A DNA stretch of 39,164 bases from Hydrurus foetidus (lineage: Eukaryota): positions 1-39,164 of the forward strand of contig UYFQ01000703.1 in the NCBI GenBank assembly GCA_900617105.1, given 5' to 3'. The notes beneath the pieces are model-generated. The model made no database searches. It saw only the letters and a list, made by a program, of their open reading frames with translations, and was not told the origin of the DNA. Below, piece by piece: positions 2,991 through 39,164 of this stretch (the first letter of the stretch is position 1; every line of letters begins with the position of its first letter). Both the position numbers and the translations under genes were made by a program.

Positions 2991-3329
2991 TGTTGGAGAT
3001 ATCGAAGTTTATGACACGGACACAATCTGTGTACTTATTACTTATGCATTCGTACGGACGTACGGATTAATGTGTGTGTGTGTGTGTGCGTACATGCGTG
3101 TCGACGATGAATGGACCCGTGCATCGTCTCTGTACTTCAAGCGTAGAGTAGGAATGACTTTTGTTGTTGCGTTGAAAGGGACTCAGGGACTTCAGCAGGG
3201 ATGAAGCACAGTCAATTAACAAGTGTTTACTGCTTATACACAGCTTATTCCACGAGTCTTGACCGAGCGATCTTCAACCACTGTACAACGAGAGACATAC
3301 ATGTGACCCAAACCAAAGATCCGTCAACA
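2991..3329 (+). repeat. 3' LTR of family D element
   Basis: Begins TGTTGG directly after the PPT-position sequence and ends TCAACA (inverted termini). There is no partner LTR in the window, so the right end is inferred. Confidence 0.65.
3071..3088. repeat. (TG)9 microsatellite inside the LTR
   Basis: Direct reading. Confidence 0.9.
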
Positions 3330-3387
3330 ATAGGCAGTGTTCGCGTATTCGCCACAGGGTACATACGGTATTATACATACTTCATAG

Positions 3388-3705
3388 TGTTGGAGTATCC
3401 GGAGAAAAGACACTGCTGTAGTTGTATAGTATATGTGTGGATCCTGACGGTCAGCGGTGTGCATCCTGGGGATGTGGACTCTGGACCGTTGGTTGTATGG
3501 GCTCATGGAGCCATCCATTCATCTATCTTCAACATGGATAGAACATGTGCAATTGCCTTGATATGTAAAGCTTCGTTGCCGTCTTGATTGATGCCGGTGC
3601 ACAAGTTTAATTATCAAGTAATTACACAGTACAAGTCTATTTTACGAGCCTTGGGTCACCGGCAGCAAGTTTCACTAAGCATCCGGACTTTGAGAAAGCC
3701 CAACA
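3388..3705 (+). repeat. 5' LTR of A1 (318 bp)
   Basis: TGTTGGAG...CCCAACA; near-identical to 8661-8936/16799-16840 and to the A2 LTRs in reverse orientation. Confidence 0.95.
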
Positions 3706-3715
3706 TAATTAAACT
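3706..3715 (+). promoter_or_regulatory. PBS-position sequence TAATTAAACT, complementary to the element's own LTR (3604-3613)
   Basis: Abuts the LTR-terminal CA, lacks TGG, and is the reverse complement of AGTTTAATTA in the LTR. Confidence 0.75.
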
Positions 3716-3730
3716 AGGCAGCGCATCGAG

Positions 3731-6700
3731 ATGCCGCCGAAGAAACAAGAAGAACCAAAATCAGGTGCAGAGCAGTCCATGCTGAAATTTGGGCGTTACA
3801 ACAACGTGGTTCAGTGGAGGGAAGATATGCAGAACGAGGCATGCGGCCTCTACGGGATGACGGGCACGTTCTTCACCACCAACAAGAGTTACGTCCATCC
3901 GTATCCTCGCGAGGAGGACTACAACCCCACCTTTCTAACGGTGGAAATCGATACCCCGACAGCGGGTACCGAAAACGAAGACGAGGAAGACGAGTCCGTA
4001 GACTTCGAAAATGTCATGATCGGGCCACAGCCTCCTCCAGAGCCCCTGTCGTGTACTCCGAGGCACTTATCGACAGGCTGAGAGCCAATGCGTTCGAGGG
4101 ACGCCGCAAGGCAGTCGAGACTCAAAAAGTCGACGAGCAAAAGCTCTTCCCACTCATGTGGTCGAGAATGTCGACGGGGTCCAAATCCAAGGTGCGCGAG
4201 GAACCAGGATTCGAAGCGGCCCGTCTCAGACTCGACAGTGTGAAACTGTGGGAGTACATTCCTAGGAGCCACTTAACTCACATCTACGGAGAAGATGATT
4301 CAATGAGAGCAATGAACGTTCACGAGCAAACGATTAGGTACAACTACCTCAGACAAGGTGAACGTGAAATAATAGGCGATTTCAAGACACGCTTCGACAA
4401 TCAGGTATTAGCCAACAGAGGTGTTGGCATGACTGAAGTAGAAGAACCGATTAGAGCAATCGACTTCCTCAGTAAGTTAGACCCGAAAAGGTATACCGGT
4501 ATGTTGACACTGATGCGTAACAACGCTGTACAAAACCTACCGAATAGTTTCCCTTCCACCTTAGCCGGAGCCTACAGGGTAGCGTCATCCTGGACCAGCT
4601 CGGGCGGTGGACCCCCTCGGAGCCGAGCAACATTCTGCATTCCTCACTGACTCTTTGATAGGCACAAAGGAAAAAGTCGCGGGAAAAGGATCGAAGGGGA
4701 AGACAGCGGGGACGAAGAAGAAAGTATCGTCAGTGATATGTTTCGTATCCGGAAAGACGGGTCATTTCGCAAGAGATTGTGAGCAACGCAAAGATGGAGA
4801 GCACGCTCTACTCACCAGCGTTGAAGAAGATATTGAGGAGGACGACGAGAGCATAGAAGCAGCCTTCGTCGTGACAGACGAAGTCGTCCTCTTCACTCGC
4901 AATCACGTGCTTCTAAACAACCTAGCTTCGGTTAACATCTTTTGCAACCCAAGCCTTCTCACGGATATCAGGAAATCGCAACACTCGATCCTGCTCAATG
5001 GAGTACAGTCCGAAGCGCATGGTGTCAGAGTCGATCAAGAAGGAGACTTTGGCGAGATTGGACCTGTATACTTCAGTCGTGGGGCAACTGCCAACATGCT
5101 TTCCTTCGCCGCGATGGCAGACAGTGGTGCAGACATCAGTTACGACCATGAGACTGGATGCTTCATGCTACGACCAGCAGGCAGCACGACCAAGTACAGC
5201 TTCAGCAGGCAAGACTTGCCAGGTTCGACAGGCAGATTCTATGTGTGGGACGCAAGCGGGATGGAAGAACAGACACATCGACCTGCAGAGCAGGCGATGG
5301 TGACGACAGTTCAAGACAATATGGCGAGGTTCACTAAACGCGAGATAGGATCAGCAGCAGCCGCCAGAGAGCTGCTAGCTCGGATGGGTTACCCACCGGT
5401 CGAGATGGCGATAGCGATGATCAGGGGAGGCAACAACTTCAACGTATCGGAAGCGGACTTCAGGAATGCGCACTCCATCTGGGGTAAATGTCTCGCCAGC
5501 CTCAGAGGCAAAACTCATAAGAAGTCTTCACCTGTGGCGGACATCTCGCTGACACCTGCACCAGCGCAGCAGCAACAACTATTGAGCGTAGACATTATAT
5601 ATCTGGAGACTACAGCAATACTTATCGCGGTTTCCACCCCTCTGGATATGACACTCGCTGTCAGCCTAATTCGACTTGATACCGAGAAGACCTCGCGAGC
5701 AGCAGCAGTTGTGAAGCCGGCCCTATGTGAGATGATATCCATACTAAAATCCAGGAATTTCATTGTGCAAGTCGTCATGTCTGACGGGGAGGGTGCCATC
5801 GGCAAAATGAGGCTTGATCTGCTAGCACTAGGAATTGAGGTAGATGTCAGTGCAGCTGGCGGACATGTAGCCAGAATCGAACGGCAGATTCAGATGGTGA
5901 AGGAGCGAGCACGTGCTCACCTCTGCGGTAGGCTCCCATTTACCCCAACTGAACTCTGTCTAACCTATCTAGCACTCTACTGCGTCTCTCGCATCAACTG
6001 CCAACAGTCAGGATCAAGGCCAGGGGGTCTTTCGCCAAGGGAATTATTCTCCGGACGGCGGGTTGACGGGAACCTGGACTTCCGTGCCGCCTTTGGAGAC
6101 TACGCCGTTTGTACCGTACCAAATACCAACAACACTATGCAATCGCGAACTGAAGATTGCATTGTCATGCTGCCTACACACAGTAGGACCGGGTCGTTCA
6201 AGATGCTGTCACTGGCAACCGGCAAGATCGTAACTCGCGACCAATTCAAGATACTGCCGATGCCGCAGTCGGTCATCGTGACACTGAATGCCATGGCACT
6301 TAAAGAAGGGAAGAAAATCATTCAAACTCAATTGCATGTGTTTGATGAACTGCTATTCGCAAACAGTCTCGATAAGTCTAAAATGCCACATTTCATTACC
6401 AACCCCCCCACTCAGGATGCACCTGTCGACGCCGGATTAGTAGACCAATCCACTCTCACTGACCTACAATCAGCCGACAGCATTTACGAGATTCCACGTT
6501 CCGATGTGGGGGGGGAGGTACCAGTTTCATTTGAAGCAACAGCATTATCGCCACGAGACGAAATCGGAAGTGAGGAACCCGATACAATCGGGGTGCAAGT
6601 TCGCGACGTACTTACACCACCCTCACCAGTACCATCACTCGAACCAGACGACTGCCCAGTCGACACACCTGAACCTGACAGCGCGGCTCTCCCACAGCAA

Positions 6701-8519
6701 CCAGCACACACGGTGCAACCGACTGTGAGAGAGCAACGAAGAACACCCGCACCGACAGAACGTATGGTGACACGGTCAGTTTGTACGAGCGAGGACGCGT
6801 TCGTGACGACGGTTGGGGGTACCACCCATAGACCAGCATATACAGGACCTGGAACACACGATGTAGAGGAAGTGATAAAGCGACATAGGGAGGAAATGAG
6901 CAAGAGCAGCACAGCCAACATCAGTGTTAAAGAGGCCTTTCGCACTAGGGGGGATGAGGCTAAGAAAGTCATCGTGTCAGAGCTAAGACAGATGATAGAC
7001 AAGAGGGTATGGGTGCCGGTGATGGGAGGCAAGCTGTCTGCGATGCAGAGAGCAGCGACCATCAGATCGTCCATGTTCCTGAAGCAGAAGAACAACCCAG
7101 ACGGAAGCTTCCTCAAGCTCAAGGCTAGACTGGTTGCAGGGGGCGACCAACAAGACAAGAGCCTGTACGAGGACTTATCTTCCCCAACCGTGTCCACCAG
7201 TGCTGAATTCACACTACTAGCGATTGCAGCACATGAAAGGCGTCGAGTCGCAGTTGTTGACATCAGAGGGGCGTATCTTAACGCGGACATGTCATCGGGA
7301 GTGCCGGTGCATATGCGCCTCGATCGCACCATGACAGACATCATTATCGACATCGACCCATCATACGGTAAGTACACGGATGCGAAAGGGGGCATGACCG
7401 TGCATCTAAAGAAGGCGCTATACGGGTGTGTCGAGAGCGCCGGATTGTGGTATGAGAATTTGCACGTCACAATGCGGGGTCTGGGGTACATACAGAATAT
7501 TCAACCGGAAGGGTCCAGATGGGCATCAGTGTACTGCTGCAGTACACGTAGATGTTCTACTCATTACGAGTAAGAGCAAAGACACTATGCTCCACCTAGT
7601 CGATGGACTACGAAAGAGGTACGGAGCAATCACCTTATCGCATGGTCCTGTCATAAATTATCTCGGTATGGCAATCGACATGCATGTACCAGGACAGGCG
7701 ATGATCACCACCACAGGATACTGTGACGAGATAGTCAAGGTATCAGGGGTGAAGGGTGTGGCACGGACACCAGCAACAGAAGGACTATTCGAGACAAGGG
7801 AGAGTGCCACAGGTGTGACAAAGCCAGTGCGAGTCTGGTTTCACAAAGTGGTCGCGATGGTGCTCTACCTAGCCAAGCGTACCAAGCCGGAGTGTCTAGT
7901 GGCGGTGGCCTTCCTTGCGACACGTGTGAATAAGTGCACCTCAGATGATGTTGACAAGTTACAGCGATTGGTGCGGTACGTACATGCGACGAGGGACAGC
8001 GGCGTAGTGCTGAGGCCAGGTGCAGGGGGGATCTCAGTGAGGCTATTTGTGGACGCATCCTACGGTGTACACAGTGATGGAAGGTCCCACACGGGCAGCT
8101 GCGTTGTGATTGGAGACATCGGGGCCGTTCACTGTCGATCTTCGAAGCAGACGATAGTCACCAAGTCAAGCACAGAGGCGGAGCTGGTGGGGCTGTCCGA
8201 CTCAGCTAATCAAGGCATATTCATCCGTATTTTTCTTATTGCACAGGGTTACAAAATGGAGCCGGTGACCATCTACCAGGACAACCAGTCGTGCATGGCC
8301 CTGGTGGAGCGTGGCAGATCAGGGGCGGAGCGCACACGCCACATCCAGATCCGTTACTTCTGGGTGAAAGAGCGGGTGGTGACCGGCGAGGTGCGTGTGG
8401 AGTACTTACGCAGCGAGGACATGTACGCGAACGTACTGACCAAGCCGCTCCAAGGATGCCAGTTCCAAAGAGAGAGAGATGGGCTCACGGGGTGGTCCAC
8501 AGAGAACGGGAAGAATTAA
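3731..8519 (+). pseudogene. copia gag-pol of A1 (frameshifted)
   Basis: Gag from ATG 3731; zinc knuckle remnant CFVSGKTGHFARDC; protease-like VLLNNLAS; IN SVDII/SDGEG/IERQI; RT KARLVAGG, KKALYG, VHVDV (A2 has VHVDD); RNase H VDASY, SSTEAE, ANVLTKP. Frameshifts near 4045, near 4610 and near 7500 (17-bp deletion relative to A2). Confidence 0.93.
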
Positions 8520-8660: not shown

Positions 8661-8936
8661 TGTTGGAGTATCCGGAGAAAAGACACTGCTGTAGTTGTAT
8701 AGTATATGTGTGGATCCTGACGGTCAGCGGTGTGCATCCTGGGGATGTGGACTGTGGACCGTTGGTTGTATGGGCTCGTGGAGCCATCCATTCATCTATC
8801 TTCAACATGGATAGAACATGTGCAATTGCCTTGATATGTAAAGCTTCGTTGCCGTCTTGATTGATGCCGGTGCACAAGTTTAATTATCAAGTAATTACAC
8901 AGTACAAGTCTATTTTTCGAGCCTTGGGTCACCGGT
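8661..8936 (+). repeat. 3' LTR of A1, left part
   Basis: Matches 3388-3663 and breaks at CCGGT, the TSD of element B. Confidence 0.95.
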
Positions 8937-9227
8937 TGTCATTGCATTGTCATTTCAAACACAAACACACAACACAATGCTCACCGAACGACCGAGCGGT
9001 CCCAACGGCACGATGACGATCCGATCTTTCCACGTTGAAGCAGTTCAGAAGAGAACTGGTCGCGACCAGTTCTCCAACAGCTACACATTGTCCATTTCAA
9101 TTGCATTCATTCCACTCAATTCACCTCATCGTTTCCATTCCACAATCACAATCTTTCACTCGGTAAACTTAAAAACCAATTCTGTTTCTACCGTTTTCCG
9201 TTTCTGGATTACCGCCGAATCCCGACA
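8937..9227 (+). repeat. 5' LTR of B (291 bp)
   Basis: Direct repeat of the split 3' LTR; about 2 substitutions seen. Confidence 0.95.
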
Positions 9228-9240
9228 ATTGGTTTTTAAG
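9228..9240 (+). promoter_or_regulatory. PBS-position sequence ATTGGTTTTTAAG, complementary to the element's own LTR (9168-9180)
   Basis: Abuts the LTR end and is the exact reverse complement of CTTAAAAACCAAT. Confidence 0.75.
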
Positions 9241-9242
9241 CA

Positions 9243-12200
9243 ATGCTCTCCACATCCACAGCCGCTGCCACTTCCACTGCTCAACATCCAATGCTGGACC
9301 TCCACTCAGACAACTGGTCGCAGTGGCATCAAGCCTTGAAGCTCCTCTGCTTCACCAAATTTGGTGTCGCTGGGCAGCAAATCCTCTCCGACACCACCAT
9401 CCCGCTCCAACCATTTCCGATCGAGCCAACAAAGGCCGACCTCGAGGCCGACCTCACAGGAGCTCCCACTCCAGGTCTCTTCACTTATCAGCGCCGACAA
9501 GCCACCGACGCCGAAGCCGCTCAACCCAACTTCGATCCCGCCACTCTTCCCCTCAGCACCCTCGGCAATACCAACTTTAGAGATGACAAAAAGATCTTCT
9601 CGGCAGCACAGCGTCGGTTCTCCGACGAGGACACAGACTGCCTCGACCATCTCTACCGACATATTTCCTTGGCCTCCCATACCGCAGTCAAAACCCACCC
9701 CAACTACCCTACCTACCAACTTCAACCCATCGGCTCTCGGAGCTATCCCTTCTATGTCATGGTCCGCGACATTCACTCCATCGGGAATGCCGCCACCAAA
9801 CTCCATCGCACCCGCCTTTATGTCAATGTCTCACAATCCGACTTGCCACATGAATCCTACATTGAACTAATAACCACTATGACTGAAACATTCAAGCTCG
9901 ACTTCGAGTCCGCGGTTCACCCGGCCTTTGTATCTATACCTGAATTAACTAGCTTCCTTTACCTCGCAGGACTCAACCGCAACGAGTTCCGCCGCGCCCT
10001 TGATGAGCTCCTCCACAACCATCCAACTGGACGGTTCCCAGATCCCACAGCTCTTATGTCCCAACTCGCATTTCTTCGCATTTCCACCTCCTTCGACTTC
10101 CATCTTTTCCTTCATTCCTCGGCTCGTCCATCCTTCCTGTCCACTATTCCATTTCCTTCCACCACTCCACCCCTCCCTGCCTCCACCATTTCCAGAACAC
10201 CTCCACTGCCACCTCATCAGAGCCACCATCGAGTCTCCACTCCTCGGACTCCGCCTGACTACCAGCCACCATCGCCCCCCTTGCACTTTTCTCCCGTCCA
10301 CTCGCCCTCGCTTCCTCCAGTACACCAACCTCCTCCACCCACCATCCAGTCTCCACCCATGATCCCCTCCCTCCTTCCTCCATCCATCCAGTCACCCTCC
10401 ACCCGGCCGCCCTCCCCCCACCACCACTATGAACTCTGCCTACTTTTCTCCACACTACCCGTTAACCTCTTCAGCCTGGGCCAAACAACGCTTTCATATG
10501 GACCTGACCCCCTTCGCCCCCTTAGTCACGTCACTATCCGCTCCTCCCCCTCAGGACCCCTCTTAGCCCACGCCGCCCTATCCACCCACAACCTCCTGCC
10601 TGTAGACTTCGCCGCCCTCCTCCACGCTTCGTCAATCAACCCTCTCTCATACTATCACCCCGTTGCAATGGCCGCGCATTCCCTCGTACCCCACACTACC
10701 GCAGAGCAGCCTACCCCCTACCCCTCATGCATGCTGTACCCCATATCAACTCTGAGCAGCGCTCTCGCGCTGATGCTGCTGAAGACCTCCACATTGAACT
10801 TTGCCACCCCTCCGATCGCAGCCTCTGTGTCAACCTCTCCACCGGCAAGCTCCCTTTCAGCACCTTAACCTGCTCCGATGTCACCCTTAACCGCCAACTC
10901 CGCGGCCCTTGCCCCCACTGCACCGCTGGTAAACACCGCAGTCCCTCCCATCCCCCCTCCACTAGCGCCCCCGCCACCTCACTTGGAGCCGTCCTCAGCT
11001 TCGACCCCAGCTCCTCCCAGAGCCCTCCCCAGGCCTACACACCCATGAAATCATCATAGTCGACGAGTTCACTGGCCACCTCTCCATCGTTGGTGCCTCA
11101 TCCAAATCCACTCCGGCTGTCTTCAAAGCCCTACACCACATTATCGCCACCACGTACAATGCACATCACCATCGCGTTCACACCCTTCACGGCGACTGTG
11201 AGAAGATCAACACTTCCCTCGCTGCACCACTTGGATCCCTCGGAATCTCCCTTCAGCTTTCCCCCTGAGAACACGCCGCACGCGTCTTCCACCACCTTCC
11301 CTACAACTACATTCCTCTCCATTCCTCCATCCTTCATTCCCCTCCCTTCACCACTATTTTCCACCACACCCTTCATTCTTTCCACCAAACTTGATCCACG
11401 ACCATCCATTTCCACAAAATTCCTGATCTTCCTTCATCCACTCTTCCTTCTTGCAAACGGTGCAATCGTGCCCCCCCGTCCAACCGCCCCCTTCCCCCAT
11501 CACTTCGTTCCCTTCAACTGGAGTCCAAAACCATTCGTTCCCAACGTTCCCTTCCCCCCTCAACCCATTCCCCCATCCATGGCCATCCTGTTTGTTGTGT
11601 CCCATCCTTCATCCGCCCCTCCGTCCGACCTCCTCCTTCCCTGGTCCACCATTCCACCGTCCACCCCCCCGTTCCTCCGGGCCACCCTCCCCCCCTTCCC
11701 ATCCCCTCCTTCCTCTGTCCATTCCCAACCCTTCCGACCCCCAGCCCTCGTCCCCGTCCCCGTCCCCGCAGCCCCCATCCCAGCCCCCTCGCCGAACCAC
11801 AACTCCGCTTCAACCAACTACAATCCCATCCCCACTCCCTCCGCACCCACGTCACCCCCCTGACACCACTGCGTCGCTCATCCCGTGCCACACATCCCAC
11901 CAACTTCTGGCGAGGCTGTTATTCTCTACCCTCGACACCGGTCCCACCTCCTTTACTCCCTCCCTCCGCGTACATCAACGCTGCCCAACGTAAACTCGAC
12001 AACGCTAAACTCGCCGCAGCCCGCAATCGCCAGCACCGTATAGACAATCCTCCAACAATTCCCCTCAACAATCGACACACGCTCCTTGAACCCCAACCGC
12101 TTACCCCCCAACGTGCTGAAATGTCCATTCGTAAAGCCTCGCAGCCCCTACCTGCCTCCGACATTGCTGCAGGAATAGCAAAAAAACTGGGAAAACATTT

Positions 12201-13741
12201 TGACACCTACCAGTCCCTCCAACTCATCCCTCGTTCCAGTGTCGAATCCAAAGCCATCTTCCTACGTAGTCAAATGCTGATCAAGAAGAAATCCAACGGC
12301 ATTGTCACTGCCCGCCTCGCCATCGACGGTAGCCGCCAACCACGTGAATCCTACAACGATACATACGCAGGAACCTCCGACACAACCAATCGTGCCTTCA
12401 TCCTCAGCTCCTACCTCGCCGATGCTGCACACCGTAACTGCCTCGACCAGCTCCTCCTTGGAGACTTCGATTTTCCAGGCGCCTTCCTCCACAACAAGCT
12501 CACACGCGAGATGACCAACGGCCACCAGCTAATCGCGATCCTCCCGGCCGACCTCCCTAGTCCCCTCGCCAACAAGCTCGCAGAAATCACTGGCTGTTGC
12601 TATGGTATAAAGCAAGCCAACCACGAATACGACAAAGACCTCATCAACCTCCTAACATCTGCTGGCTTTCACCCAACACTCTCTGACCACCACAGCTTTT
12701 ATAAGCAATGTCCCGACAACCCCGCCGACTCACTGACCCTCAACATGCATGTCGACGATGGATGGTACGTCACTTGCTCCCGTACACTACGCGATGAACT
12801 CAAAACCATCCTTACAGGACGCTACGGACCCATAGCCTTCAATGATGCCTCGACAGGTGTCTGCGGAGTCCGTCTAACACGTAACGCTGACCACTCATGT
12901 ACTCTCGACCAAGGCGCCCACATCTGAAGTTCTTACATCAATCTGGCATGGACCTCGTCCCCCCCGCACTTACACCATCCACCGCAAACTTCTTCGACCC
13001 CCCATCCGACCTTACCCCAGTAGACCGCACCCGCTTCTTACGCATCAACGGCACTCTCATATTCCTACTTTCAATTCGACACGATATCAGGAAAGAAGTT
13101 GTCCACCTATGCACTCGAAACATTTCCCCAACCCAATCCGACCTCTCAAAACAAATCCACCTCCTCCGATATCTCAAAGGCTGCCCCCACATCGGCCCTA
13201 CTTTCTCCGCCAACCCATCCTCATTTCCATCCGGAGTCACTATCCTCGCTGCCGCTGACTCATCCCACGCATGCCATCCGGATGGACACTCTCACTCTGC
13301 GTACACTATCCAGATCGGCACGACCAACGCTTCATTCGCCGTCCACTCTTCCGCTGAAATTTCCGGCGTCGCCCTCAGCCCCTGCGAAGCTGAGTATCTC
13401 GCCCTCGGAAGATGCGCGAAAGATGTCAAACTCTTCCGACAGTTTGCAGCAGATCTAGGCTTCCCCCAAACATCTCCAACAGTTATCCTCGAAGATAACC
13501 AACCAGCTATCAATCTGACCACCGCACACCAGATCACCCGCAAGTCCCGCCACATCGCCCTCAAATCACACTACATACGCTGGCTTTACAAAACCAAAGA
13601 GATTGTCCCCAACACATAGGTACTCATGACATGATTGCCGATGGTCTCATCAAAAGCCTCACCCCCTCCAAATTCTTATGGTTCCGCAGCAAACTACTCA
13701 ACACTCCAACTACTTCACACAACCCTCACTCATCATTGTAA
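9243..13741 (+). pseudogene. copia gag-pol of B (heavily deleted and frameshifted)
   Basis: Gag-like N-terminus (NWSQW); IN zinc finger LHIELCH...CPHC (about 10790-10925) with a truncated core; RT TARLAIDG, DFPGAFLH, CYGIKQA, MHVDD (12121-12927); RNase H ADSSH, SPCEAEY, EDNQPA, MIADGLIK. Confidence 0.88.
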
Positions 13742-13829
13742 TTTCTCACCCCCCCTACATATAGTACTCCACATTTCTCAATATAACATAAGCCACATAT
13801 CGATTCATCATATATCACTTACCGGCGCA

Positions 13830-14004
13830 TGTCATTGCATTGTCATTTCAAACACAAACACACAACACAATGCTCACCGAACGACCGAGCGGTCCCAACG
13901 GCACGATGACGATCCGATCTTTCCACGTTGAAGCAGTTCAGAAGAGAACTGGTCGCGACCAGTTCTCCAACAGCTACACATTGTCCATTTCAATTGCATT
14001 CATT
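13830..14004 (+). repeat. 3' LTR of B, left part
   Basis: Matches 8937-9111. Confidence 0.95.
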
Positions 14005-14437
14005 AGAGTGTTCCTGATTCGTCCAAAAACGGGTAAAAGACAAATAAAAAAGACAAATCTGTCTCGAAACCATCGAAACCTCGTGCCCCTCGGACGAATT
14101 TTCGCAGAATCTGTCCTGCCTCGAGACAACATATCATCATTCAGAAACCCACTGTAAGAAAACTTCACTGGCAGCCGATCATGAGATTCTATCGCAGACC
14201 AGCGATTAAAAAGTTGTCACTTCGTCGGAGATGGTTAGGACTGACATCCTTGATGCGAATCTCGTGCAGAAAACTTGAGAAGGTGGACTTTGAGACTTTA
14301 TCTTTCGAACGTCAACGTCTCTAACAGCGTCGCAATCCATTACCTAGATTATCATCAAGCTCGTCAGAATCTTCCGCCGGATCAGATATGTTGAAAGTAG
14401 GAGGAAAGTAACGAGACTGAAGAGAGCAATTCTGAGA

Positions 14438-15559
14438 TTGTTGATTCGACGTCACAAGATAGTCAGTGTTCCCAAGGAATTAGAGGAGAAGCTGCCGAGA
14501 ATACGGAATCTTCGCAGAACAATTGATTCATTCTCCGACGAGGAAATTCCCGTCTACTTTCGATTCCGGAGTAAAGAGCAGCTTCATCGTCTGATGCGGG
14601 GTTTTCAAATTCCGATGCAAGTCAAATTACCTAAGACGGGCAATGTATTCGAAGGGGAAGAACTGCTTCTTATCGGACTGTATAGACTCCACCGACCAAC
14701 GACACTATCTGAAGGCGGTTTCAAGCTCATCTTTGGAATGGGACATACAGCAGTGTCAATGGCCTTCAATGCTTTCCTTGATTTCATAGTGGATAAATGG
14801 AGTTACATCATCACGGATAACATGGATTTTTGGCTACTGTATTTACCAGACTGTGCACAGGCCATCCGAGATAAATGTGTCGAAAAGGGTTGCTACTTTC
14901 CAGATGCGCGATCACCCGGAGGACTTAGAGTAGCAGCGTTTATAGACAACACTATGAACGCTACCTGCCGCCCTGGTGGAGGTCCTGCGCGAGATGGCCG
15001 AGATGCGCCGAGGAACGACCCTCTCATTCAGCGCGCCTGGTACAGCGGCTGGAAAAAGCTCCACGGAATGAAATATCAGACTATAGATATGCCGAATGGG
15101 ATGAACTTACATGTCTGGGGTCCCATCAGCGTGAGACACAACGATCTGACATCATTAAGAGATTCTGATGTCAATCAGAAAATAGTCGATATGCAAATCA
15201 ATGAACCGCTTCAGTGGGTATTCTACGGGGACTCTGCCTATGTTCATGTGCCAGATTCGCATATTCTAGCGAGGCACCATAACGAAGTCAACACTGAGCG
15301 TCAGAACCAAGAGAAAAGATGTCTCTCAGCTTGTCGTGAGTGCATCGAATGGGACTACGGCGACGTCGGAAAGATGTGGTCGATGGTGGATTACAAAAAG
15401 GTTTTAAAAATGCAATTAATGCCTGTTAAGGATATCTATTTGACTGCTCTAATACTAAGGAATGCTTACGTCACAATGAATGGTGGTACCGCTCCAGAAT
15501 ATTTTAATTTGACTCCACCAACTTTTGAAGTGTGGGTACAACAGGGTCCACGCTGTTAA
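14438..15559 (+). CDS. Harbinger/HARBI1-type DDE transposase (true start probably upstream and disrupted)
   Basis: FRFR..L HTH-like region, FIDNT, YSGWKKLHGMKYQ..PNG..GP..RHND, YGDSAY, RECIEW. The ORF track start is a TTG; the upstream ATG at 14231 is followed by stops. Confidence 0.88.
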   Translation: MLIRRHKIVSVPKELEEKLPRIRNLRRTIDSFSDEEIPVYFRFRSKEQLHRLMRGFQIPMQVKLPKTGNVFEGEELLLIGLYRLHRPTTLSEGGFKLIFGMGHTAVSMAFNAFLDFIVDKWSYIITDNMDFWLLYLPDCAQAIRDKCVEKGCYFPDARSPGGLRVAAFIDNTMNATCRPGGGPARDGRDAPRNDPLIQRAWYSGWKKLHGMKYQTIDMPNGMNLHVWGPISVRHNDLTSLRDSDVNQKIVDMQINEPLQWVFYGDSAYVHVPDSHILARHHNEVNTERQNQEKRCLSACRECIEWDYGDVGKMWSMVDYKKVLKMQLMPVKDIYLTALILRNAYVTMNGGTAPEYFNLTPPTFEVWVQQGPRC

Positions 15560-15610
15560 ACCTTATTGTTTAATAATATATTTCATTTTCGTTTTCATAA
15601 ACACTTCACT

Positions 15611-16474
15611 TTAAAACGTATCTTTCATGTTTCTCGCGAAGAACTCCATCATTTTCATTTGTAAGTTGGACGCGGCGAGGTCCGCTTTGGATCGTTCCAT
15701 TTCGGCTTTTGAACGCTCAAACGACATCTTCTCCTCTGAATCCATTCTTCTTTTCTCAATGTCTCGCGCGTGTGCTCTGTCGGCAATTGAGTCTTCCAGC
15801 CTTTGCTTTCTCTCAGCAATCTCCAATTCTAGGAGTCGTGGATCGTCTTTCATTGCCTTTAGAACCTCGACTTCAAAGTCTTCCCCTGCCTTGTCCTGCT
15901 GTTGAAATGATGGAGACCGTCTTCTTTTAATTGTTTTCGGGACGATGGTGCTTCCATCAGAGCAATCAGAAACAACATCCTCAGGAGAAGCTGCAGAGAA
16001 CTCCTCTTCCTCATGTCTGTCATGTCGCGCCAGCATTTTCTTCTCGTGCGTAATCATCTTATCGTTTCGCTCTTTGTCTTTCACTTTCTGATCCTCTTTT
16101 GCTTTTGCTGTTTCAAACCTCTCTTTCAGCATCGTCAGGACCAGCTTATCCAGCTCCGAGGGCTCCTCGTCTAGGCCAGACAGATTTGCCCCCTCGACAC
16201 TGATTGCGTACTTGGTGTCGACGTTAAAGGCGATACGGTCCCACTTCTTTTTTAAGGCAGCACCATCCAACATGGCTCCCGAAAATGCTTGATCAGAGCT
16301 GATTTTAATGCTCACTGCAGTAAACTTGTCAGTCAAATTGGTATCTCTCCGCATGTAACCTTTTTCCTTAAAGACATAGTTTGCTAGAGTGAGCTCCTTT
16401 TGCTCAGTCCAAGCAAAATTACGCTTCACAGGCTTCGCTGCCTTTTGAGTTGGGGGGTTTTCAATCTCTTGCAT
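15611..16474 (-). CDS. Harbinger accessory protein (Myb/SANT-like N-terminus, coiled-coil C-terminus)
   Basis: FAWTEQKELTL...LKKKW pattern and an E/K/R-rich tail; lies within the TIRs, convergent with the transposase; ATG at 16474. Confidence 0.75.
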   Translation of the reverse strand: MQEIENPPTQKAAKPVKRNFAWTEQKELTLANYVFKEKGYMRRDTNLTDKFTAVSIKISSDQAFSGAMLDGAALKKKWDRIAFNVDTKYAISVEGANLSGLDEEPSELDKLVLTMLKERFETAKAKEDQKVKDKERNDKMITHEKKMLARHDRHEEEEFSAASPEDVVSDCSDGSTIVPKTIKRRRSPSFQQQDKAGEDFEVEVLKAMKDDPRLLELEIAERKQRLEDSIADRAHARDIEKRRMDSEEKMSFERSKAEMERSKADLAASNLQMKMMEFFARNMKDTF

Positions 16475-16677
16475 TGTTAATTGATTGTGCCATTGTGCGC
16501 ATCGCAATGAAGCAAGTTTGTAAATCTTCAGAAAAAATTTCGAATTTATTTGAATCTTTTTGAAAATGTGTCCTATTTACTGACAGACAAATCAGAACCA
16601 CCTGCTTTTTGTCTTGCGTATGGGGACAGACTTGTCCACGGACAAATTTGTCCTGGACGGATCAGGAACACTCTATT

Positions 16678-16793
16678 CCACTCAATTCACCTCATCGTTT
16701 CCATTCCACAATCACAGTCTTTCACTCGGTAAACTTAAAAACCAATTCTGTTTCTACCGTTTTCCGTTTCTGGATTACCACCGAATCCCGACA
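16678..16793 (+). repeat. 3' LTR of B, right part
   Basis: Matches 9112-9227 and ends CCCGACA. Confidence 0.95.
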
Positions 16794-16798
16794 CCGGT

Positions 16799-16840
16799 AG
16801 CACGAGTCACTAAGCATCCGGACTTAGAGAAAGCCCAACA
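16799..16840 (+). repeat. 3' LTR of A1, right part
   Basis: Resembles 3664-3705 and ends GCCCAACA. Confidence 0.9.
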
Positions 16841-16849
16841 CATATAGTA

Positions 16850-17169
16850 TGTTGGGCTTTCTCTAAATCCGGATGCTTAGTGGCGCGTGCTTCCGGTGAC
16901 CCAAGGCTCGTAAAATAGACTTGTACTGTGTAATTACTTGATAATTAAACTTGTGCACCGGCATCAATCAAGACGGCAACGAAGCTTTACATATCAAGGC
17001 AATTGCACATGTTCTATCCATGTTGAAGATAGATGAATGGATGGCTCCATGAGCCCATACAACCAACGGTCCACAGTCCACATCCCCAGGATGCACACCG
17101 CTGACCGTCAGGATCCACACACATATACTATACAACTACAGCAGTGTCTTTTCTCCGGATACTCCAACA
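16850..17169 (-). repeat. 3' LTR of A2
   Basis: Reverse complement of the family A LTR. Confidence 0.95.
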
Positions 17170-17312: not shown

Positions 17313-19643
17313 TTAATTCTTCTCGCACGCTGTGGACCACCCCGTGAGCCCATCTCTCTCTCTTTGGAACTGGCATCCTTGAAGCGGCTTGGTCAGTACG
17401 TTCGCGTACATGTCCTCGCTCCGTAAGTACTCCACACGCACTTCACCGGTCACCACCCGCTCTTTCACCCAGAAGTAACGGATCTGGATATGGCGTGTGC
17501 GCTCCGCTCCTGATCTGCCGCGCTCCACCAGGGCCATACACGATTGGTTGTCTTGGTAGATGGTCACCGGCTCCATTTTGTACCCCTGTGCAATGAGAAA
17601 AATACGGATGAATATGCCTTGATTAGCTGAGTCGGACAGCCCAACCAGCTCCGCCTCCGTGCTAGACTTGGTGACTATTGTCTGCTTCGAAGATCGACAG
17701 TGAACGGCCCCGATGTCTCCAATCACAACGCAGCTGCCAGTGTGGGATCTCCCATCACTGTGTACACCGTATGATGCGTCCACAAATAGTCGCACTGAGA
17801 TCCCCCCTGCACCCGGCCTCAGCACTACGCCGCTGTCCCTTGTCGCATGTACGTACCGCACTAATCGCTGTAACTTGTCCACATCATCTGAGGTGCACTT
17901 ATTCACACGTGTCGCCAGGAAAGCCACCGCCACTAGGCACTCCGGCTTAGTACGCTTGGCTAGGTAGAGCACCATTGCGACCACTTTGTGGAACCAGACT
18001 CGCACTGGCTCTGTCACTCCTGTGGCACTCTCCCTTGTCTCGAATAGCCCTTCTGTTGCTGGTGTCCGTGCCACACCCCTCACCCCTGATACCTTCACTA
18101 TCTCGTCACAGTATCCTGTGGTGGTTATCATCGCCTGTCCTGGTACATGCATGTCGATTGCCATACCGAGATAATTTATGATAGGACCATGCGATAAAGT
18201 GATTGCTCCGTACCTCTTTCGCAGTCCATCGACTAGGTGGAGCATTGAGTCTGTGCTCTTACTCGTAATGAGTAGATCATCTACGTGTACTGCAGCAGTG
18301 CACTGATGCCCATCTGGGCCCGTCCGGTTGAATACGCATTTATCGCTGATATTCTGTATGTACCCCAGTCCCCGCATCGTGACGTGCAAATTCTCATACC
18401 ACAATCCCGCGCTCTCGACACACCCGTATAGCGCTTTCTTTAGATGCACGGTCACTCCCCCTTTAGCATCCGTGTACTTACCGTACGATGGGTCGATGTC
18501 GATAATGATGTCTGTCATGGTGCGATCGAGGCGCATATGCACCGGCACTCCCGATGGCATGTCCGCGTTAAGGTACGCCCCACTGATGTCAACAACTGCG
18601 ACTCTACGCCTTTCATGTGCTGCAATCGCTAGTAGTGTGAATACAGCACTAGTGGACACAGTTGGGGAGGATAAGTCCTCGTACAGGCTCTTGTCTTGTT
18701 GGTCGCCCCCTGCGACCAGTCTAGCCTTGAGCTTGTGGAAGCTTCCGTCTGGGTTGTTCTTCTGCTTCAGGAACATGGACGATCTGATGGTTGCTGCTCT
18801 CTGCATTGCAGACAGCTTGCCACCCAACACCGGCACCCATACCCTCTTGTCTATCATCTGTTTTAGCTCTGAAACGATGACTTTCTTAGCCTCATTTCCT
18901 CTAGTGCGAAACGCCTCTTTGACACTGATGTTGGCTGTGCTGCTCTTGCTCATTTCCTCCCTATGTCGCTTTATCACTTCCTCTAGATCGTGTGTCCCGG
19001 GTCCTGAGTTCGCTGATCTAGGGGTGGTACCCCCAACGTTTGTCACGAACGCGTCTTCGCTCGTACGAACTGACCGTGTCACCATACGTTCCGTTGGTGC
19101 AGGTGTTCTACGTTGCTCTCTAACTGTCGGTTGCACTGTGTGTGCTGGTTGCTGAGGGAATGACGTGCTGTCAGGTTCAACTGTGTCGACTGGACTGTCG
19201 TCTGGTTCGGGTGATGGTGCTAGTGAGGGTGGCGATGTAAGTACGTCGTGCACTTGCACCCCGCTTGTATCGGGTTCCTCAATTCCGATTTCATCTGGTG
19301 GTGATAATGATGTTGCTTCAAATGGGACTGGTACCTCCCCCCCCACATTGGAAAGTGGAATCTCGTAAATGTTGTCGGCTGGTTGTAGGTCAGTGAGAGT
19401 GGATTGGTCTACCGATCCGGCGTCGACAAGTGCATCCTGAGTGGGGGGGTTGGTAATGAAGTGTGGCATTTTAGACTTGTCGAGACTGTTCGCGAATAGC
19501 AGTTCATCAAACACATGCAATTGAGTTTGAATGATTTTCTTCCCTTCTAACTGCCGGCATTCAGTGTCAGGATGACTACTGCGGCATCGGCAGTATCTTG
19601 AATTGGTCGCGAGTGACGACTTGCCGGTTGCCTTTGAGAGCAT
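17313..19643 (-). pseudogene. A2 pol C-terminal part (intact RT and RNase H frame; no protease or integrase core)
   Basis: VDISGAYLNA, KKALYG, VHVDD, VDASY, SSTEAE; nearly identical to A1. Confidence 0.9.
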
Positions 19644-19649
19644 CTTGAA

Positions 19650-20376
19650 CGATTGGTCTAATCGGTGTGTACTTCAGCATGCCAACACCTCTTTGGCTTA
19701 CCTGATTGTCGAAGCGTGTCTTGAAATCGCCTATTATTTCACGTTCACCTTGTCTGAGGTAGTTGTACCGAATCGTTTGCTCGTGAACGTTCATTGCTCT
19801 CATTGAATCATCTTCTCCGTAGATGTGAGTTAAGTGGCTCCTACGAATGTACTCCCACAGTTTCACACTGTCAAGTCTGAGGCGGGCCGCTTCAAATCCT
19901 GGTTCCTCGCGCACCTTGGATTTGGACCCCGTCGACATTCTCGACCACATGAGTGGAAAGAGCTTTTGCTCGTCGACTTTTTGAGTCTCTACTGCCTTGC
20001 GGCGTCCCTCGAACGCATTGGCTCTCAGCCTGTCGATAAGTGCCTCGGAGTACACGACAGGGGGCTCTGGAGGAAGCTGTGGCCCGATCATGACATTTTC
20101 GAAGTCTACGGACTCGTCTTCCTCGTCTTCGTTTTCGGTACCCGCTGTCGGGGTATCGATTTCCACCGTTAGAAAGGTGGGATTGTAGTCCTCCTCGCGA
20201 GGATACGGATGGACGTAACTCTTGTTGGTGGTGAAGAACGTGCCCGTCATCCCGTAGAGGCCGCATGCCTCGTTCTGCATATCTTCCCTCCACTGCACCA
20301 CGTTGTTGTAACGCCCAAATTTCAGTATGCACTGCTCTGCACCTGATTTTGGTTCTTCTTGTTTCTTCGGCGGCAT
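19650..20376 (-). pseudogene. A2 gag, C-terminally truncated
   Basis: MPPKKQEE... nearly identical to A1 gag, without A1's first frameshift; ends at the deletion junction near 19650. Confidence 0.9.
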
Positions 20377-20401
20377 CTCGATGCGCTGACTAGTTTAATT
20401 A

Positions 20402-20721
20402 TGTTGGGCTTTCTCTAAATCCGGATGCTTAGTGGCGCGTGCTTCCGGTGACCCAAGGCTCGTAAAATAGACTTGTACTGTGTAATTACTTGATAATTAA
20501 ACTTGTGCACCGGCATCAATCAAGACGGCAACGAAGCTTTACATATCGAGGCAATTGCACATGTTCTATCCATGTTGAAGATAGATGAATGGATGGCTCC
20601 ATGAGCCCATACAACCAACGGTCCACAGTCCACATCCCCAGGATGCACACCGCTGACCGTCAGGATCCACACACATATACTATACAACTACAGCAGTGTC
20701 TTTTCTCCGGATACTCCAACA
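20402..20721 (-). repeat. 5' LTR of A2
   Basis: Followed on the minus strand by TAATTAAACT (20401-20392), complementary to LTR positions 20494-20503. Confidence 0.95.
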
Positions 20722-21663: not shown

Positions 21664-22644
21664 TCAGTTGTTACTCTCCAATGGCGGAAATATGTAAGAT
21701 TTGAAGCGCTCCACTTCAGAAGCGGATCCATAGCAGACACCTACACGCCTATCGAGATCACCTACGATGACGTCCAGGAGTGATACTGGAGATACAGATT
21801 CAGCTGCCTCACTTGGGCAGACACACGTCGCGCCACCTGCAGCCTCGACAATAAGTGCTATAGGAGCAGCCTCAAAGAGTAGCCTGAGTTTGGCTTTCGC
21901 GGCAGGGGATGATGCATTTGCTAAGACTCCTTCTCCTTTGATCAGAATATGGTAAACATCTGGTACAAGGCCGCCACTGTAGCGCAAAGTATACTTGTTC
22001 TCAATCCAGTATGCAACCAGCCTCCTATAGCAATCATTGTCAACCGTCGCCCTCAGATTTCCTGGTGCGAAGGTTTTCCCCTTATGGGCGATGACAAGCT
22101 TATCTTTCGACACCATCCATCCTAAAGGAAGCATCGTCAGTTCCATGGCGATTGGTACGCCATCAACAGTGTTCATGCCATTTATAGCTATTGCTACAGT
22201 GACTTTCGGCCCATATTGCGCTATCATAGAGGCTGATTGTTCCCGACCACAACGATTTAGCAGCCCATTACCGGGCCATATTCCAACTATAGTGCCGACA
22301 GCAAAATTGCAGTCAACAATCGACGAGCCATCGAGGGGATCGAAGGCAACAGAAAATCCGACGCCGCCGCAGTCGATTTCAACTGGATTCTCCTCTGATG
22401 CGGCCACATGAACAAGAGAGCTCGATCGCAAACAGGCAAAAACCAGTTCATCAGTCTTCACATCGACGTCGAGCTGATGATCACCGAAAGCATTTTGAGT
22501 GCCAACCTCAGATGTTGAATAGCCGCAATCTCTAAGCGTGGTGCCAATCTCCCTTATACCTCCTAGTAATTTGGATATGAGATTGTGTAGGCCACTCTTC
22601 GTCGCTGTATTATTCAAAATTACGGTCAGTTCGGTGGGTAACAT
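21664..22644 (-). CDS. Sedoheptulose-1,7-bisphosphatase (FBPase class I family), 326 aa
   Basis: NAFGDHQLDVD, ASEE, FDPLDGSSIVDCNFAVGTI, FAPGNLRAT, YTLRYSGGLVPDV, KLRLLFEAAP; first ATG at 22644; intronless. Confidence 0.9.
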   Translation of the reverse strand: MLPTELTVILNNTATKSGLHNLISKLLGGIREIGTTLRDCGYSTSEVGTQNAFGDHQLDVDVKTDELVFACLRSSSLVHVAASEENPVEIDCGGVGFSVAFDPLDGSSIVDCNFAVGTIVGIWPGNGLLNRCGREQSASMIAQYGPKVTVAIAINGMNTVDGVPIAMELTMLPLGWMVSKDKLVIAHKGKTFAPGNLRATVDNDCYRRLVAYWIENKYTLRYSGGLVPDVYHILIKGEGVLANASSPAAKAKLRLLFEAAPIALIVEAAGGATCVCPSEAAESVSPVSLLDVIVGDLDRRVGVCYGSASEVERFKSYIFPPLESNN

Positions 22645-22799
22645 TATTCTCGACTTCCTCAAGTATGTCAGTTCTCGGAGCTGGTCCGCACGTTGAACTG
22701 CATGCAATTTATGCTGCCGTAGGGGTTGGAGACGCTCTCTACACCAGACGAGATGGATGGTAAAGATAGGCAAATGGGCAAAATACTGCACCGACTGGA

Positions 22800-22841
22800 T
22801 GTCGTAACTAAGGATCAGTTTCCACTGAATGGAAAACTATA
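22800..22841 (-). repeat. 3' LTR of C, distal fragment
   Basis: Identical to 33658-33699. Confidence 0.93.
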
Positions 22842-23083
22842 AGCCGCTCACACCGAAATTCTTTGTACTGGGTACCAGTTTTTCACCGCCGACAACAATC
22901 TGCACACTCGATCAGTCACATCACCTTCACTCCATAACCTCATAAATTTACAACTCGCAACCATCTGCTAAGTTACTGAGTGATTCTTGCAGAGTGGATC
23001 GCAGAGCTTCAGCCAAACGGCGAAAACGGGAAAGTTTTTTTTGCTCGGTAACTGCTTCCGCAAATATTTCGAATCGATTATTT
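22842..23083 (+). repeat. Left TIR (242 bp)
   Basis: Reverse complement of 27466-27711 apart from one ~4-nt indel. Confidence 0.95.
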
Positions 23084-23096
23084 TCTAGTCACGCTA

Positions 23097-25025: not shown

Positions 25026-25043
25026 ATTGTATTACTATTCAAT

Positions 25044-27459: not shown

Positions 27460-27465
27460 ATCCTC

Positions 27466-27711
27466 AAATAATCGATTCGAAATATTTGCGGAAGCAGTTA
27501 CCGAGCAAAAAAAACTTTCCCGTTTTCGCCGTAACTGTGGCTGAAGCTCTGCGATCCACTCTGCAAGAATCACTCAGTAACTTAGCAGATGGTTGCGAGT
27601 TGTAAATTTATGAGGTTATGGAGTGAAGGTGATGTGACTGATCGAGTGTGCAGATTGTTGTCGGCGGTGAAAAACTGGTACCCAGTACAAAGAATTTCGG
27701 TGTGAGCGGCT
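27466..27711 (-). repeat. Right TIR (246 bp)
   Basis: Inverted copy of 22842-23083. Confidence 0.95.
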
Positions 27712-33647: not shown

Positions 33648-33657
33648 TCGTTAATTA
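33648..33657 (-). promoter_or_regulatory. PBS-position sequence TAATTAACGA, complementary to the element's own LTR (33796-33805)
   Basis: Abuts the LTR end; forms a perfect 10-nt inverted repeat with the LTR-internal site. Confidence 0.75.
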
Positions 33658-34022
33658 TGTCGTAACTAAGGATCAGTTTCCACTGAATGGAAAACTATAT
33701 CCTTCCTGGGTACGCGCTCCTTCTGCAGGTTCAACACGTGCGCTAGCAACTTTCCCGGGCTCAAGGCGAAAGCTCTGCTGGTGTGAGTATTAAGGTAATT
33801 AACGATGCAACATCGCTTACATCGTTCATGGAGACAGGCGAAAAGATCGCGCTGTCCCGCACAGTCAAACATGGTGCACTTTCATCTTTTTGATGTTCCT
33901 GGGTTAAAGGAACCTGGACCGGTGGAGTAGTGACCACCACACGGCACACGACGTACGGAACGTCATCAAATGTACATACGTAATAACTTATACGGTTACT
34001 TAGCTCATTAGTTATTCCGACA
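33658..34022 (-). repeat. 5' LTR of C (365 bp)
   Basis: Uninterrupted copy of the split 3' LTR. Confidence 0.95.
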
Positions 34023-38500: not shown

Positions 38501-38573
38501 TCTGGTCGCCACCTAGGTGCGGTGTATCACCCGTACGTTTTGCGAGAATAGTAGTGACACTATTGGCAGACAC
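35507..38573 (-). pseudogene. gypsy pol (RT, RNase H, integrase, chromodomain), several frameshifts
   Basis: RTCIDYRPLN, TRLPFG, YLDD (near 37700), LRSFLGLANYFR, TDASDFGIG, EKEAYA-like QKEAYA, TDHLN, ADALSR, H..GH..CPCC, VDYIGP, SDRGSHF, WHGPY, chromodomain VEKVL..VKWLNY...TWEP. Confidence 0.92.
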
Positions 38574-39164
38574 ATACTGCAGAATAATGATTTTTACTCC
38601 GACTGATCATATCTTCATTGTGATGAATCAGTCGACGATGATCGATGCGTCTCTACCTCGAATTTGCCTGAGGCCTGGAAGCATTTTTTTCCACACGCTT
38701 TCTGGCCTGTGCAACTTAGGGATACAAATTTCGGTATAACCACGTCTAGTACTCTATAAGCACACTGTCAAACTTTGCCTCCCTAAGTTTAAAAATTGAT
38801 TTTTTTGTGGCTGTGTTTCCACTCTGCGACATGCTGACCTATCTCTACTACGAGCTTGAACACCGATTCAACATCTTTCATGTGCCATTGTGATGGTACA
38901 GGATTTAGTACCACATTCCTACCCTCCATAGTACCGTATAGCCGTCCGTACATGTGGCTGAGAGTCCTTCTGACCTCTCGCAGCTTGTAGTTACCTTGCA
39001 ACGCTTTGCATGCAGAGTTTTACACCTCTGCAAGCTCACCCACCACTCTTTCCGTTGTAAGCCTAACTACCTTTCTGCCTCTCCTAGCTTCATTTGGACT
39101 ACAGTGGATCTACTCGTTCCGCTTTCCTTCTAAATTCTACTACTTTGCCCCCTACTACCCATCC

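What the first reader, a model, noticed from the sequence alone, without database searches (positions are those of the whole stretch)
3604..3715. Family A copia: PBS complementary to its own LTR, suggesting tRNA-independent self-priming
Seen: directly after the 5' LTR's terminal CA lies TAATTAAACT (3706-3715), with no TGG. It is the perfect reverse complement of AGTTTAATTA (3604-3613) within the LTR. Copy A2 shows the same pair (20392-20401 and 20494-20503). The 3' end of the LTR motif would pair exactly with the first base after the LTR, the register needed to prime minus-strand strong-stop DNA. Established: this is the architecture of Schizosaccharomyces Tf1 (Ty3/gypsy), where the 5' end of the mRNA anneals to the PBS and RNase H cleavage creates the primer; Ty1/copia elements are known as tRNA or tRNA-fragment primed. 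Inference: a self-priming Ty1/copia lineage, which I do not know to have been described.
Basis: partly seen in the sequence, partly recalled or inferred. Interest (0 to 1): 0.88.

Follow-up and report, generated by a model that had tools for sequence, protein, structure and literature searches.

The report
Self-priming copia retrotransposon in an alga
This jumping gene has no tRNA-binding site; instead the 10 bases after its left repeat pair with a piece of that repeat, and distant relatives keep such a pairing with different letters, so the group likely starts copying itself with the front end of its own RNA, a trick proven only in a yeast element and predicted for one plant group.

Summary
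TAATTAAACT (3706-3715) directly follows the 5' LTR (3388-3705) and is the exact reverse complement of 3604-3613; copy A2 repeats it. A second copia family in the window (C) and 11 outside elements show the same junction-anchored match of 9-16 nt with different sequences: 13 of 13 testable, against 0 of 5 other copia with tRNA-type sites and 1 of 156 cross-family pairs. This covariation argues against a tRNA primer. A CA initiator-like dinucleotide sits at the 5' edge of the match in 9 of 13. Best reading: Tf1-like self-priming in a diatom-type copia clade of an ochrophyte alga (0.8). The transcription start, the cleavage and the priming are inferred, not shown. Against: in the A1 copy the helix is not the lowest-energy fold, and a blind test on family B was inconclusive. 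The novelty claim is overstated: self-priming was already predicted for the plant copia lineage TAR (PMC6317226). This scan also noted the same feature earlier in diatom DNA. I found no paper describing it for this algal clade.

The parts
3388..3705 (+). 5' LTR of copy A1 (TGTTGG...CCAACA, 318 bp)
   Evidence: repeat of 8661-8935 plus 16792-16840 and of both A2 LTRs
3602..3603 (+). CA dinucleotide at the 5' edge of the predicted primer; initiator-like, predicted transcription start at 3602-3604
   Evidence: CA at this edge in 9 of 13 families; diatom Inr-like CAY+1A / TCAH+1W in PMC4686930; inference
3604..3613 (+). predicted self-primer (first about 10 nt of the element RNA)
   Evidence: exact reverse complement of 3706-3715
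3651..3703 (+). predicted U5 stem (3651-3656 with 3698-3703) next to the primer helix; its loop varies between copies
   Evidence: present in the folds of A1 and A2 at 37 C; copy differences
3706..3715 (+). primer-binding site, no spacer after the LTR, no TGG
3731..8519 (+). gag-PR-INT-RT-RNase H region of A1, broken by frameshifts (ORFs 3718-4650, 4583-7573, 7410-8519)
   Evidence: (RVT_2); integrase-type region upstream of RT = copia order
8661..8935 (+). 3' LTR of A1, first part (interrupted by a nest of DNA transposons)
16792..16840 (+). 3' LTR of A1, last 49 bp
16850..17169 (-). 3' LTR of copy A2 (1 difference from its 5' LTR; target-site duplication TAGTA)
20392..20401 (-). primer-binding site of A2
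20402..20721 (-). 5' LTR of A2, predicted self-primer at 20503-20494
   Evidence: helix present in the lowest-energy fold
33648..33657 (-). primer-binding site of family C (TAATTAACGA)
33658..34022 (-). 5' LTR of family C; predicted self-primer TCGTTAATTA at 33805-33796
   Evidence: no blastn match to the family A LTR
2991..3329 (+). 3' LTR of family B with a candidate primer motif at 3209-3218; its 5' end is outside the window
   Evidence: test of the predicted site inconclusive

Best explanation
Family A is a Ty1/copia retrotransposon whose primer-binding site is complementary to its own LTR and which likely primes reverse transcription with the 5' end of its own RNA, as Tf1 does. Shown: the 10-nt complementarity, its register at the LTR end, the lack of TGG, and the covarying recurrence in relatives. 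Inferred: (1) transcription starts at the CA initiator-like site, 3602-3604; (2) the first about 10 nt fold back over a 92-nt loop onto 3706-3715, next to a U5 stem, probably helped by Gag; (3) the element's RNase H cuts at or next to 3613/3614 and frees a 3'-OH; (4) RT extends from there through U5 and R, giving a minus-strand strong-stop DNA of about 92 nt joined to a 10-11-nt RNA. Steps 3 and 4 are taken over from Tf1 by analogy.
For: Own-LTR match starting at the first base after the LTR in 13 of 13 testable families, 9-16 nt, 11 of 13 at 10 nt or more; per family 0-15 of 2000 base shuffles and 0-2 of 500 dinucleotide shuffles reach it. The site of one family against the LTR of another reaches 9 nt in 1 of 156 pairs and 8 nt in 2. 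The sites share only 38% mean identity over their first 9 nt, and none has TGG or GGTTAT. Families A and C share the core TAATTAA and differ at three outer positions, changed on both sides. Five other copia elements carry conserved GGTTAT-type sites and reach at most 6 nt. Pairing stops at the LTR end plus or minus 1 base. In 2 studies' contigs, diverged subfamilies match through 3618-3635 and again from about 3694, and differ in between (table 5). RT with YxDD-type motif (HVDD) and the first three acidic RNase H residues are present.
Against: No RNA data, so the start site, the cut and the primer are untested. In the A1 5' LTR the helix is not the lowest-energy fold: 0 of 10 pairs, mean pair probability 0.26 at 37 C and 0.17 at 20 C, about 2 kcal/mol above a competing local hairpin; L080 is also weak and L018 partial. 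The family A duplex is weak, -6.5 kcal/mol. Two relatives reach only 9 nt, below the 10-nt criterion of Neumann et al.. For the 11 outside elements I set the LTR junction by hand after seeing the inverted-repeat list; in 3 of them (L004, L007, L027) the LTR start was not identified. The last acidic RNase H residue is Asn in family A. Host tRNAs could not be searched.
Confidence: 0.8

Rival explanations
1. The pairing is real and selected but structural (packaging, dimerisation or a U5-IR-like switch), and the primer is some other RNA.
For: A palindromic TAATTA core recalls the fungal GalEa conserved hairpin site; the A1 RNA has an alternative fold that hides the motif.
Against: A purely structural helix would not need to begin exactly at the first base after the LTR in 13 of 13 families, or to sit at an initiator-like CA. 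Most relatives' sites are not palindromic, and the GalEa partner lies downstream of the LTR, not inside it.
Confidence: 0.08
2. The primer is the element's own 5' sequence but is supplied in trans (from the second packaged RNA or from short transcripts), or is released by a host nuclease instead of the element's RNase H.
For: Sequence alone cannot separate cis from trans; the cis helix is disfavoured in A1; the last acidic RNase H residue is Asn in A, B and five relatives.
Against: The cis helix is fully in the lowest-energy fold in 11 of 14 sequences at 37 C, including A2 (folding from the primer's edge favours it, so this shows feasibility only). Self-pairing relatives such as C, L004, L011, L018, L019 and L071 keep the Asp.
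Confidence: 0.07
3. A host tRNA or internal tRNA fragment primes, and the LTR match is incidental.
For: Half-tRNA priming is common in Ty1/copia (Osser, Bryco, Bianca); host tRNAs were not available to search (none in the window); five families share a TAAT(T) or CAATT start.
Against: tRNA-dictated sites are conserved between families, as in 4 of the 5 control elements, which share GGTTATCAGCCG. These sites instead diverge (38% identity) and each tracks its own LTR.
Confidence: 0.05

Closest known systems
Tf1/Tf2 of Schizosaccharomyces pombe, Tj1, Tf1/sushi and Tcn1 groups (Ty3/gypsy chromoviruses)
   Same: Site after the 5' LTR complementary to an LTR segment. In Tf1 the first 11 bases pair with the PBS and RNase H cuts between bases 11 and 12 (passages of PMC7175516; PMC4600332).
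   Different: Other superfamily: RVT_2-type RT with integrase upstream, and no chromodomain found. Match 9-16 nt, not 11. No experiment exists here.
TAR lineage of plant Ty1/copia (Houba, Osr-1, Fourf)
   Same: Ty1/copia with predicted self-priming, 89% of 203 elements (PMC6317226, supplement 5). Family A meets that paper's rule of 10 bp or more starting 0-5 bp after the LTR. 5-bp target-site duplication.
   Different: Host is an ochrophyte alga. The RT reads RLVAGGDQQ and lacks the G.D[YF].ETF motif (0 of 120 homologues), which I recall as typical of canonical plant copia. No TAR sequence was available for the tree, so separate origin is inferred.
Diatom CoDi lineages (CoDiI and CoDiII; PMC2806351)
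   Same: Nearest Atlas clusters for the RT-RNase H region are RVT_2 proteins whose few labelled members are mostly Bacillariophyta. CoDiI and CoDiII lie outside the canonical Copia lineage.
   Different: In the passages I saw the paper says nothing about primer sites ('tRNA' 0 occurrences). No named CoDi sequence was compared, so the subgroup is unassigned. The host gene points to a freshwater ochrophyte, perhaps a chrysophyte.
Fungal GalEa copia with the Conserved Hairpin Site (PMC5445492)
   Same: Copia without a tRNA site; a palindromic AT-rich motif directly after the LTR (CTAATTAGT variant).
   Different: Its partner is 12-41 bp downstream, the sequence is conserved, and the authors found no complementary LTR sequence.

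Membership tests
Ty1/copia LTR retrotransposon | LTRs with TG...CA ends and a target-site duplication | tested here: met
   (A2 exact 5 bp; A1 and C 4 of 5)
Ty1/copia LTR retrotransposon | RVT_2-type RT with integrase upstream of RT | tested here: met
   RVT_2 E 1.9e-20; integrase-type motifs upstream by inspection (no Pfam rve hit)
Self-primed LTR elements (Tf1 mechanism) | PBS complementary to own 5' LTR, 10 bp or more, starting 0-5 bp after the LTR | tested here: met
   10 bp at offset 0; rule
Self-primed LTR elements (Tf1 mechanism) | No tRNA 3'-end complementarity (no TGG) | tested here: met
   0 of 14 sites; host tRNA fragments not searchable
Self-primed LTR elements (Tf1 mechanism) | The complementary segment is the 5' end of the transcript | tested here: inconclusive
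   only an initiator-like CA in 9 of 13 families; no RNA reads
Self-primed LTR elements (Tf1 mechanism) | RNA folds into the primer-PBS helix | tested here: inconclusive
   yes in A2 and C (0.96), no in the A1 5' LTR (0.26)
Self-primed LTR elements (Tf1 mechanism) | RNase H-dependent cleavage creates the primer | not testable with these tools
   three acidic residues present, the fourth is Asn
Tf1/sushi group | Ty3/gypsy domain order and RT | tested here: not met
   RVT_2 and copia order
TAR lineage | RT-RH-INT phylogeny inside TAR | not tested
   no TAR sequence available (REXdb file too large); a sister relation to the canonical-type control L072 is rejected, p-AU 8e-7, which does not place TAR
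Diatom CoDi lineages | RT clusters with named CoDi elements | tested here: inconclusive
   only unnamed Bacillariophyta-labelled clusters
Fungal GalEa CHS | Conserved 9-bp palindrome pairing with a downstream partner, none in the LTR | tested here: not met
   partner is upstream in the LTR and sequences vary

The most novel reading that the evidence does not exclude
A deep-branching algal Ty1/copia clade is wholly tRNA-independent and owes nothing to TAR or Tf1. It would then be a third origin of self-priming or, most boldly, a survivor of the ancestral LTR priming mode, working with primers as short as 9-10 nt.
Probability: 0.3. Interest if true: 0.72.

Novelty: new variant of a known kind. 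Interest (0 to 1): 0.52.

Why it matters
Self-priming has been shown experimentally for Tf1 and predicted for one plant copia lineage. A large, diverse algal copia clade using it would mean the switch away from tRNA happened repeatedly, or that hairpin priming is ancestral, as PMC3601003 speculates. It would also mean such elements escape control through tRNA supply or tRNA fragments, and are missed by annotation tools that require a tRNA PBS. The natural series of 9-16-nt primers over 53-205-nt loops makes the rules of primer cleavage directly testable.

Tried and rejected
No whole genome is held, so host tRNAs and further copies could not be searched. The window holds no tRNA and no Rfam match. 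No RNA holder was listed among sequencing runs, and contigs cannot show a start site. Blind test on family B: I predicted its site from the LTR motif before seeing the reads (note). Of the 5 loose-end rows at 3329-3331, one (X2, 2 contigs, agreement 0.63) matches 7 of the first 9 predicted letters and the other 4 look like flanking DNA, so the test is inconclusive. Two scans of viral contigs found no relative. The one metagenome scan used RT patterns but confirmed against an integrase query, so only 5 of 605 matched stretches were kept. The RNA 3603-3730 is no more stable than shuffles (z -0.33). The piece 22799-22841 first looked like an LTR fused to a host gene; it is the end of family C's 3' LTR, split off by a DNA transposon. 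An Atlas look-up meant to anchor the control element L072 did not complete. The careful tree did not finish; both trees are quick searches. Earlier-finding look-ups by sequence, by place and by chrysophyte words gave nothing.

Full report
Observation. The window is a nest of transposons in a eukaryote. Copy A1 has a 318-bp 5' LTR (3388-3705), followed without spacer by TAATTAAACT (3706-3715), the exact reverse complement of 3604-3613. A2, on the minus strand, repeats this; its LTRs differ at 1 of 320 positions and it has an exact 5-bp target-site duplication. A match this long arose in 1 of 2000 base shuffles and 0 of 500 dinucleotide shuffles of the A1 LTR. The RT is of the RVT_2 type with the integrase region upstream, so the element is Ty1/copia. 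Both copies are damaged: A1 has frameshifts and A2 an internal deletion.

Host. The neighbouring FBPase/SBPase-like gene has named homologues in Ochromonadaceae (62%) and Ectocarpus (60%) among 120 listed hits, most of them unnamed. The element's DNA is held mostly by freshwater, sediment and biofilm runs (four of them laid). I infer a freshwater ochrophyte, perhaps a chrysophyte. The nearest Atlas clusters of the RT-RNase H region are labelled Bacillariophyta on 3-4 members each.

Covariation inside the window. Family C, whose LTR has no blastn match to A's, has TAATTAACGA after its LTR and TCGTTAATTA inside it. The core is shared with A, and the three outer positions differ on both sides so that pairing is kept.

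Covariation outside. Relatives came from eukaryotic contigs mis-binned into prokaryote assemblies and from metagenomes. In the first tree an 18-row clade (SH-aLRT 98) holds the window elements. Eleven of those 18 rows contain the 5' LTR junction, and all 11 show the match; the other 7 (B, L002, L010, L025, L051, L054, L069) lack the junction. L082 (not in the trees) and L080 (position unstable) also match. L005 was dropped as a duplicate of L004, and A2 is counted with A1. That gives 13 of 13 families with 9-16 nt of exact complementarity from the first base after the LTR, 11 of them 10 nt or more, over loops of 53-205 nt. In the second tree a 14-row core has support 99, while L027 and L080 fall outside it on long branches, so the clade's edges are uncertain. 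Controls: the site of one family against another family's LTR reaches 9 nt in 1 of 156 pairs; moving the junction 15-40 bases downstream gives at most 7 nt. Five more distant copia elements with a recognisable GGTTAT-type site reach at most 6 nt over ten offsets. I recall that motif as half-tRNA-Met type; no call tested it. In other distant contigs examined I could not place a junction and did not count them. A caveat: outside junctions were set by hand after I saw the inverted-repeat list. In 9 of the 11 the junction repeat was the top-ranked one in the region searched, it tied in L071 and ranked second in L080. For A and C the junction is fixed independently by the LTR pair.

Start site. There is no RNA evidence. 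A CA dinucleotide lies at the 5' edge of the match in 9 of 13 families against about 12% expected (positions chosen after the fact). Passages of PMC4686930 give CAY+1A and TCAH+1W as diatom initiator-like motifs; family A fits the CA but not the full TCAHW. This points to a start at 3602-3604. In public contigs from two studies, depth is highest within the A LTR at 3558-3651, and diverged subfamilies align through 3618-3635 and again from about 3694. This fits selection on the motif and the LTR end, but the tables were cut and contig depth is a rough measure.

Folding. Starting one base before the motif, the helix is fully in the lowest-energy fold in 11 of 14 sequences at 37 C, including A2 and C (pair probability 0.96). 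It is not in the A1 5' LTR named in the finding (0.26, 2 kcal/mol above a local hairpin) or in L080, and it is partial in L018. A1's U5 differs from that of its own 3' LTR at 5 of 49 positions, so this copy may not be representative. Folding from the primer's edge favours the helix, so these results show feasibility only.

Mechanism. By analogy with Tf1, where the first 11 bases pair with the PBS and RNase H cuts between bases 11 and 12 (passage of PMC7175516), the RNA's first about 10 nt would pair with 3706-3715, be cut free at 3613/3614 and prime a strong-stop DNA of about 92 nt. In 6 of 13 families the pairing can extend onto the LTR's terminal A but not to a second base, so the cut site is uncertain by one base. 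I put this at 0.8. A structural-only role, priming in trans, and tRNA-fragment priming share the rest.

Comparison with what is known. Neumann et al. (PMC6317226; passages, section 13 and supplement 5 read; the element table and FASTA were too large to open and may bear on the TAR comparison) predict self-priming for TAR copia and cite Capy 2005 for Houba and Osr-1, which I did not see. So self-priming copia are not new as a concept. The family A RT lacks a motif I recall as typical of canonical copia (0 of 120 homologues), and a sister relation to the canonical-type control is rejected, but no TAR sequence was in my trees. For the diatom CoDi paper (PMC2806351), the fungal GalEa paper (PMC5445492), PMC4600332, PMC3601003, PMC3599244 and PMC12477816 I saw passages only; none of these passages describes self-priming in algal copia. 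Six searches bore on the point and listed no such paper; they cover only the open library, and I read only the top rows of the larger lists. This scan's earlier notes report the same feature in diatom-type copia in other genomes. They are unchecked AI notes and are not counted as support.

Verdict. A real, lineage-wide feature, best explained as Tf1-like self-priming in an algal copia clade. It is a new variant of a known kind, with the decisive RNA evidence still missing. Interest 0.52.

Noticed in passing
window 7410-8519 and 17313-19673 (RNase H ends); 2526-2945: The last acidic RNase H residue is Asn (A-N-x-x-TK) in A1, A2, B, in 106 of 120 close homologues (13 unmatched, 1 Thr) and in L002, L008, L025, L069 and L070, but Asp in C and the other relatives. 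It marks a subclade and does not track the self-pairing.
   Followed up: partly
window 3657-3705 vs 16792-16840: A1's two LTRs differ at 5 of the last 49 bases but only 3 of the first 275, which suggests recombination or conversion in U5.
   Followed up: partly
window 22842-27710: Element with about 245-bp terminal inverted repeats inserted into family C's 3' LTR; it carries an XPG-like nuclease ORF (23052-24359) and several ORFs without a Pfam match. Superfamily not identified.
   Followed up: no
window 8936-16791: Nest of DNA transposons inside A1's 3' LTR, with a DDE_Tnp_4 ORF (14348-15559) and unassigned long ORFs (9240-10868, 11395-12927).
   Followed up: no
window 35507-38606 (-): Ty3/gypsy fragment with RNase H, integrase and chromodomain; its primer site was not located.
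   Followed up: no
window 21664-22836 (-): Intronless FBPase/SBPase-like host gene directly next to the end of family C's 3' LTR.
   Followed up: partly
G001 (L002, L006, L011, L069-L079, L083-L118): An assembly filed as a bacterium holds more than 60 RVT_2 matches; several prokaryote genome bins contain eukaryotic retrotransposon contigs.
   Followed up: partly
L076, L090, L092, L113: Four distant copia elements share the site GGTTATCAGCCG; the priming tRNA was not identified.
   Followed up: no
L082 about 254-551: The RNase H reading frame runs about 200 bases into the LTR and ends just past the predicted self-primer motif.
   Followed up: no
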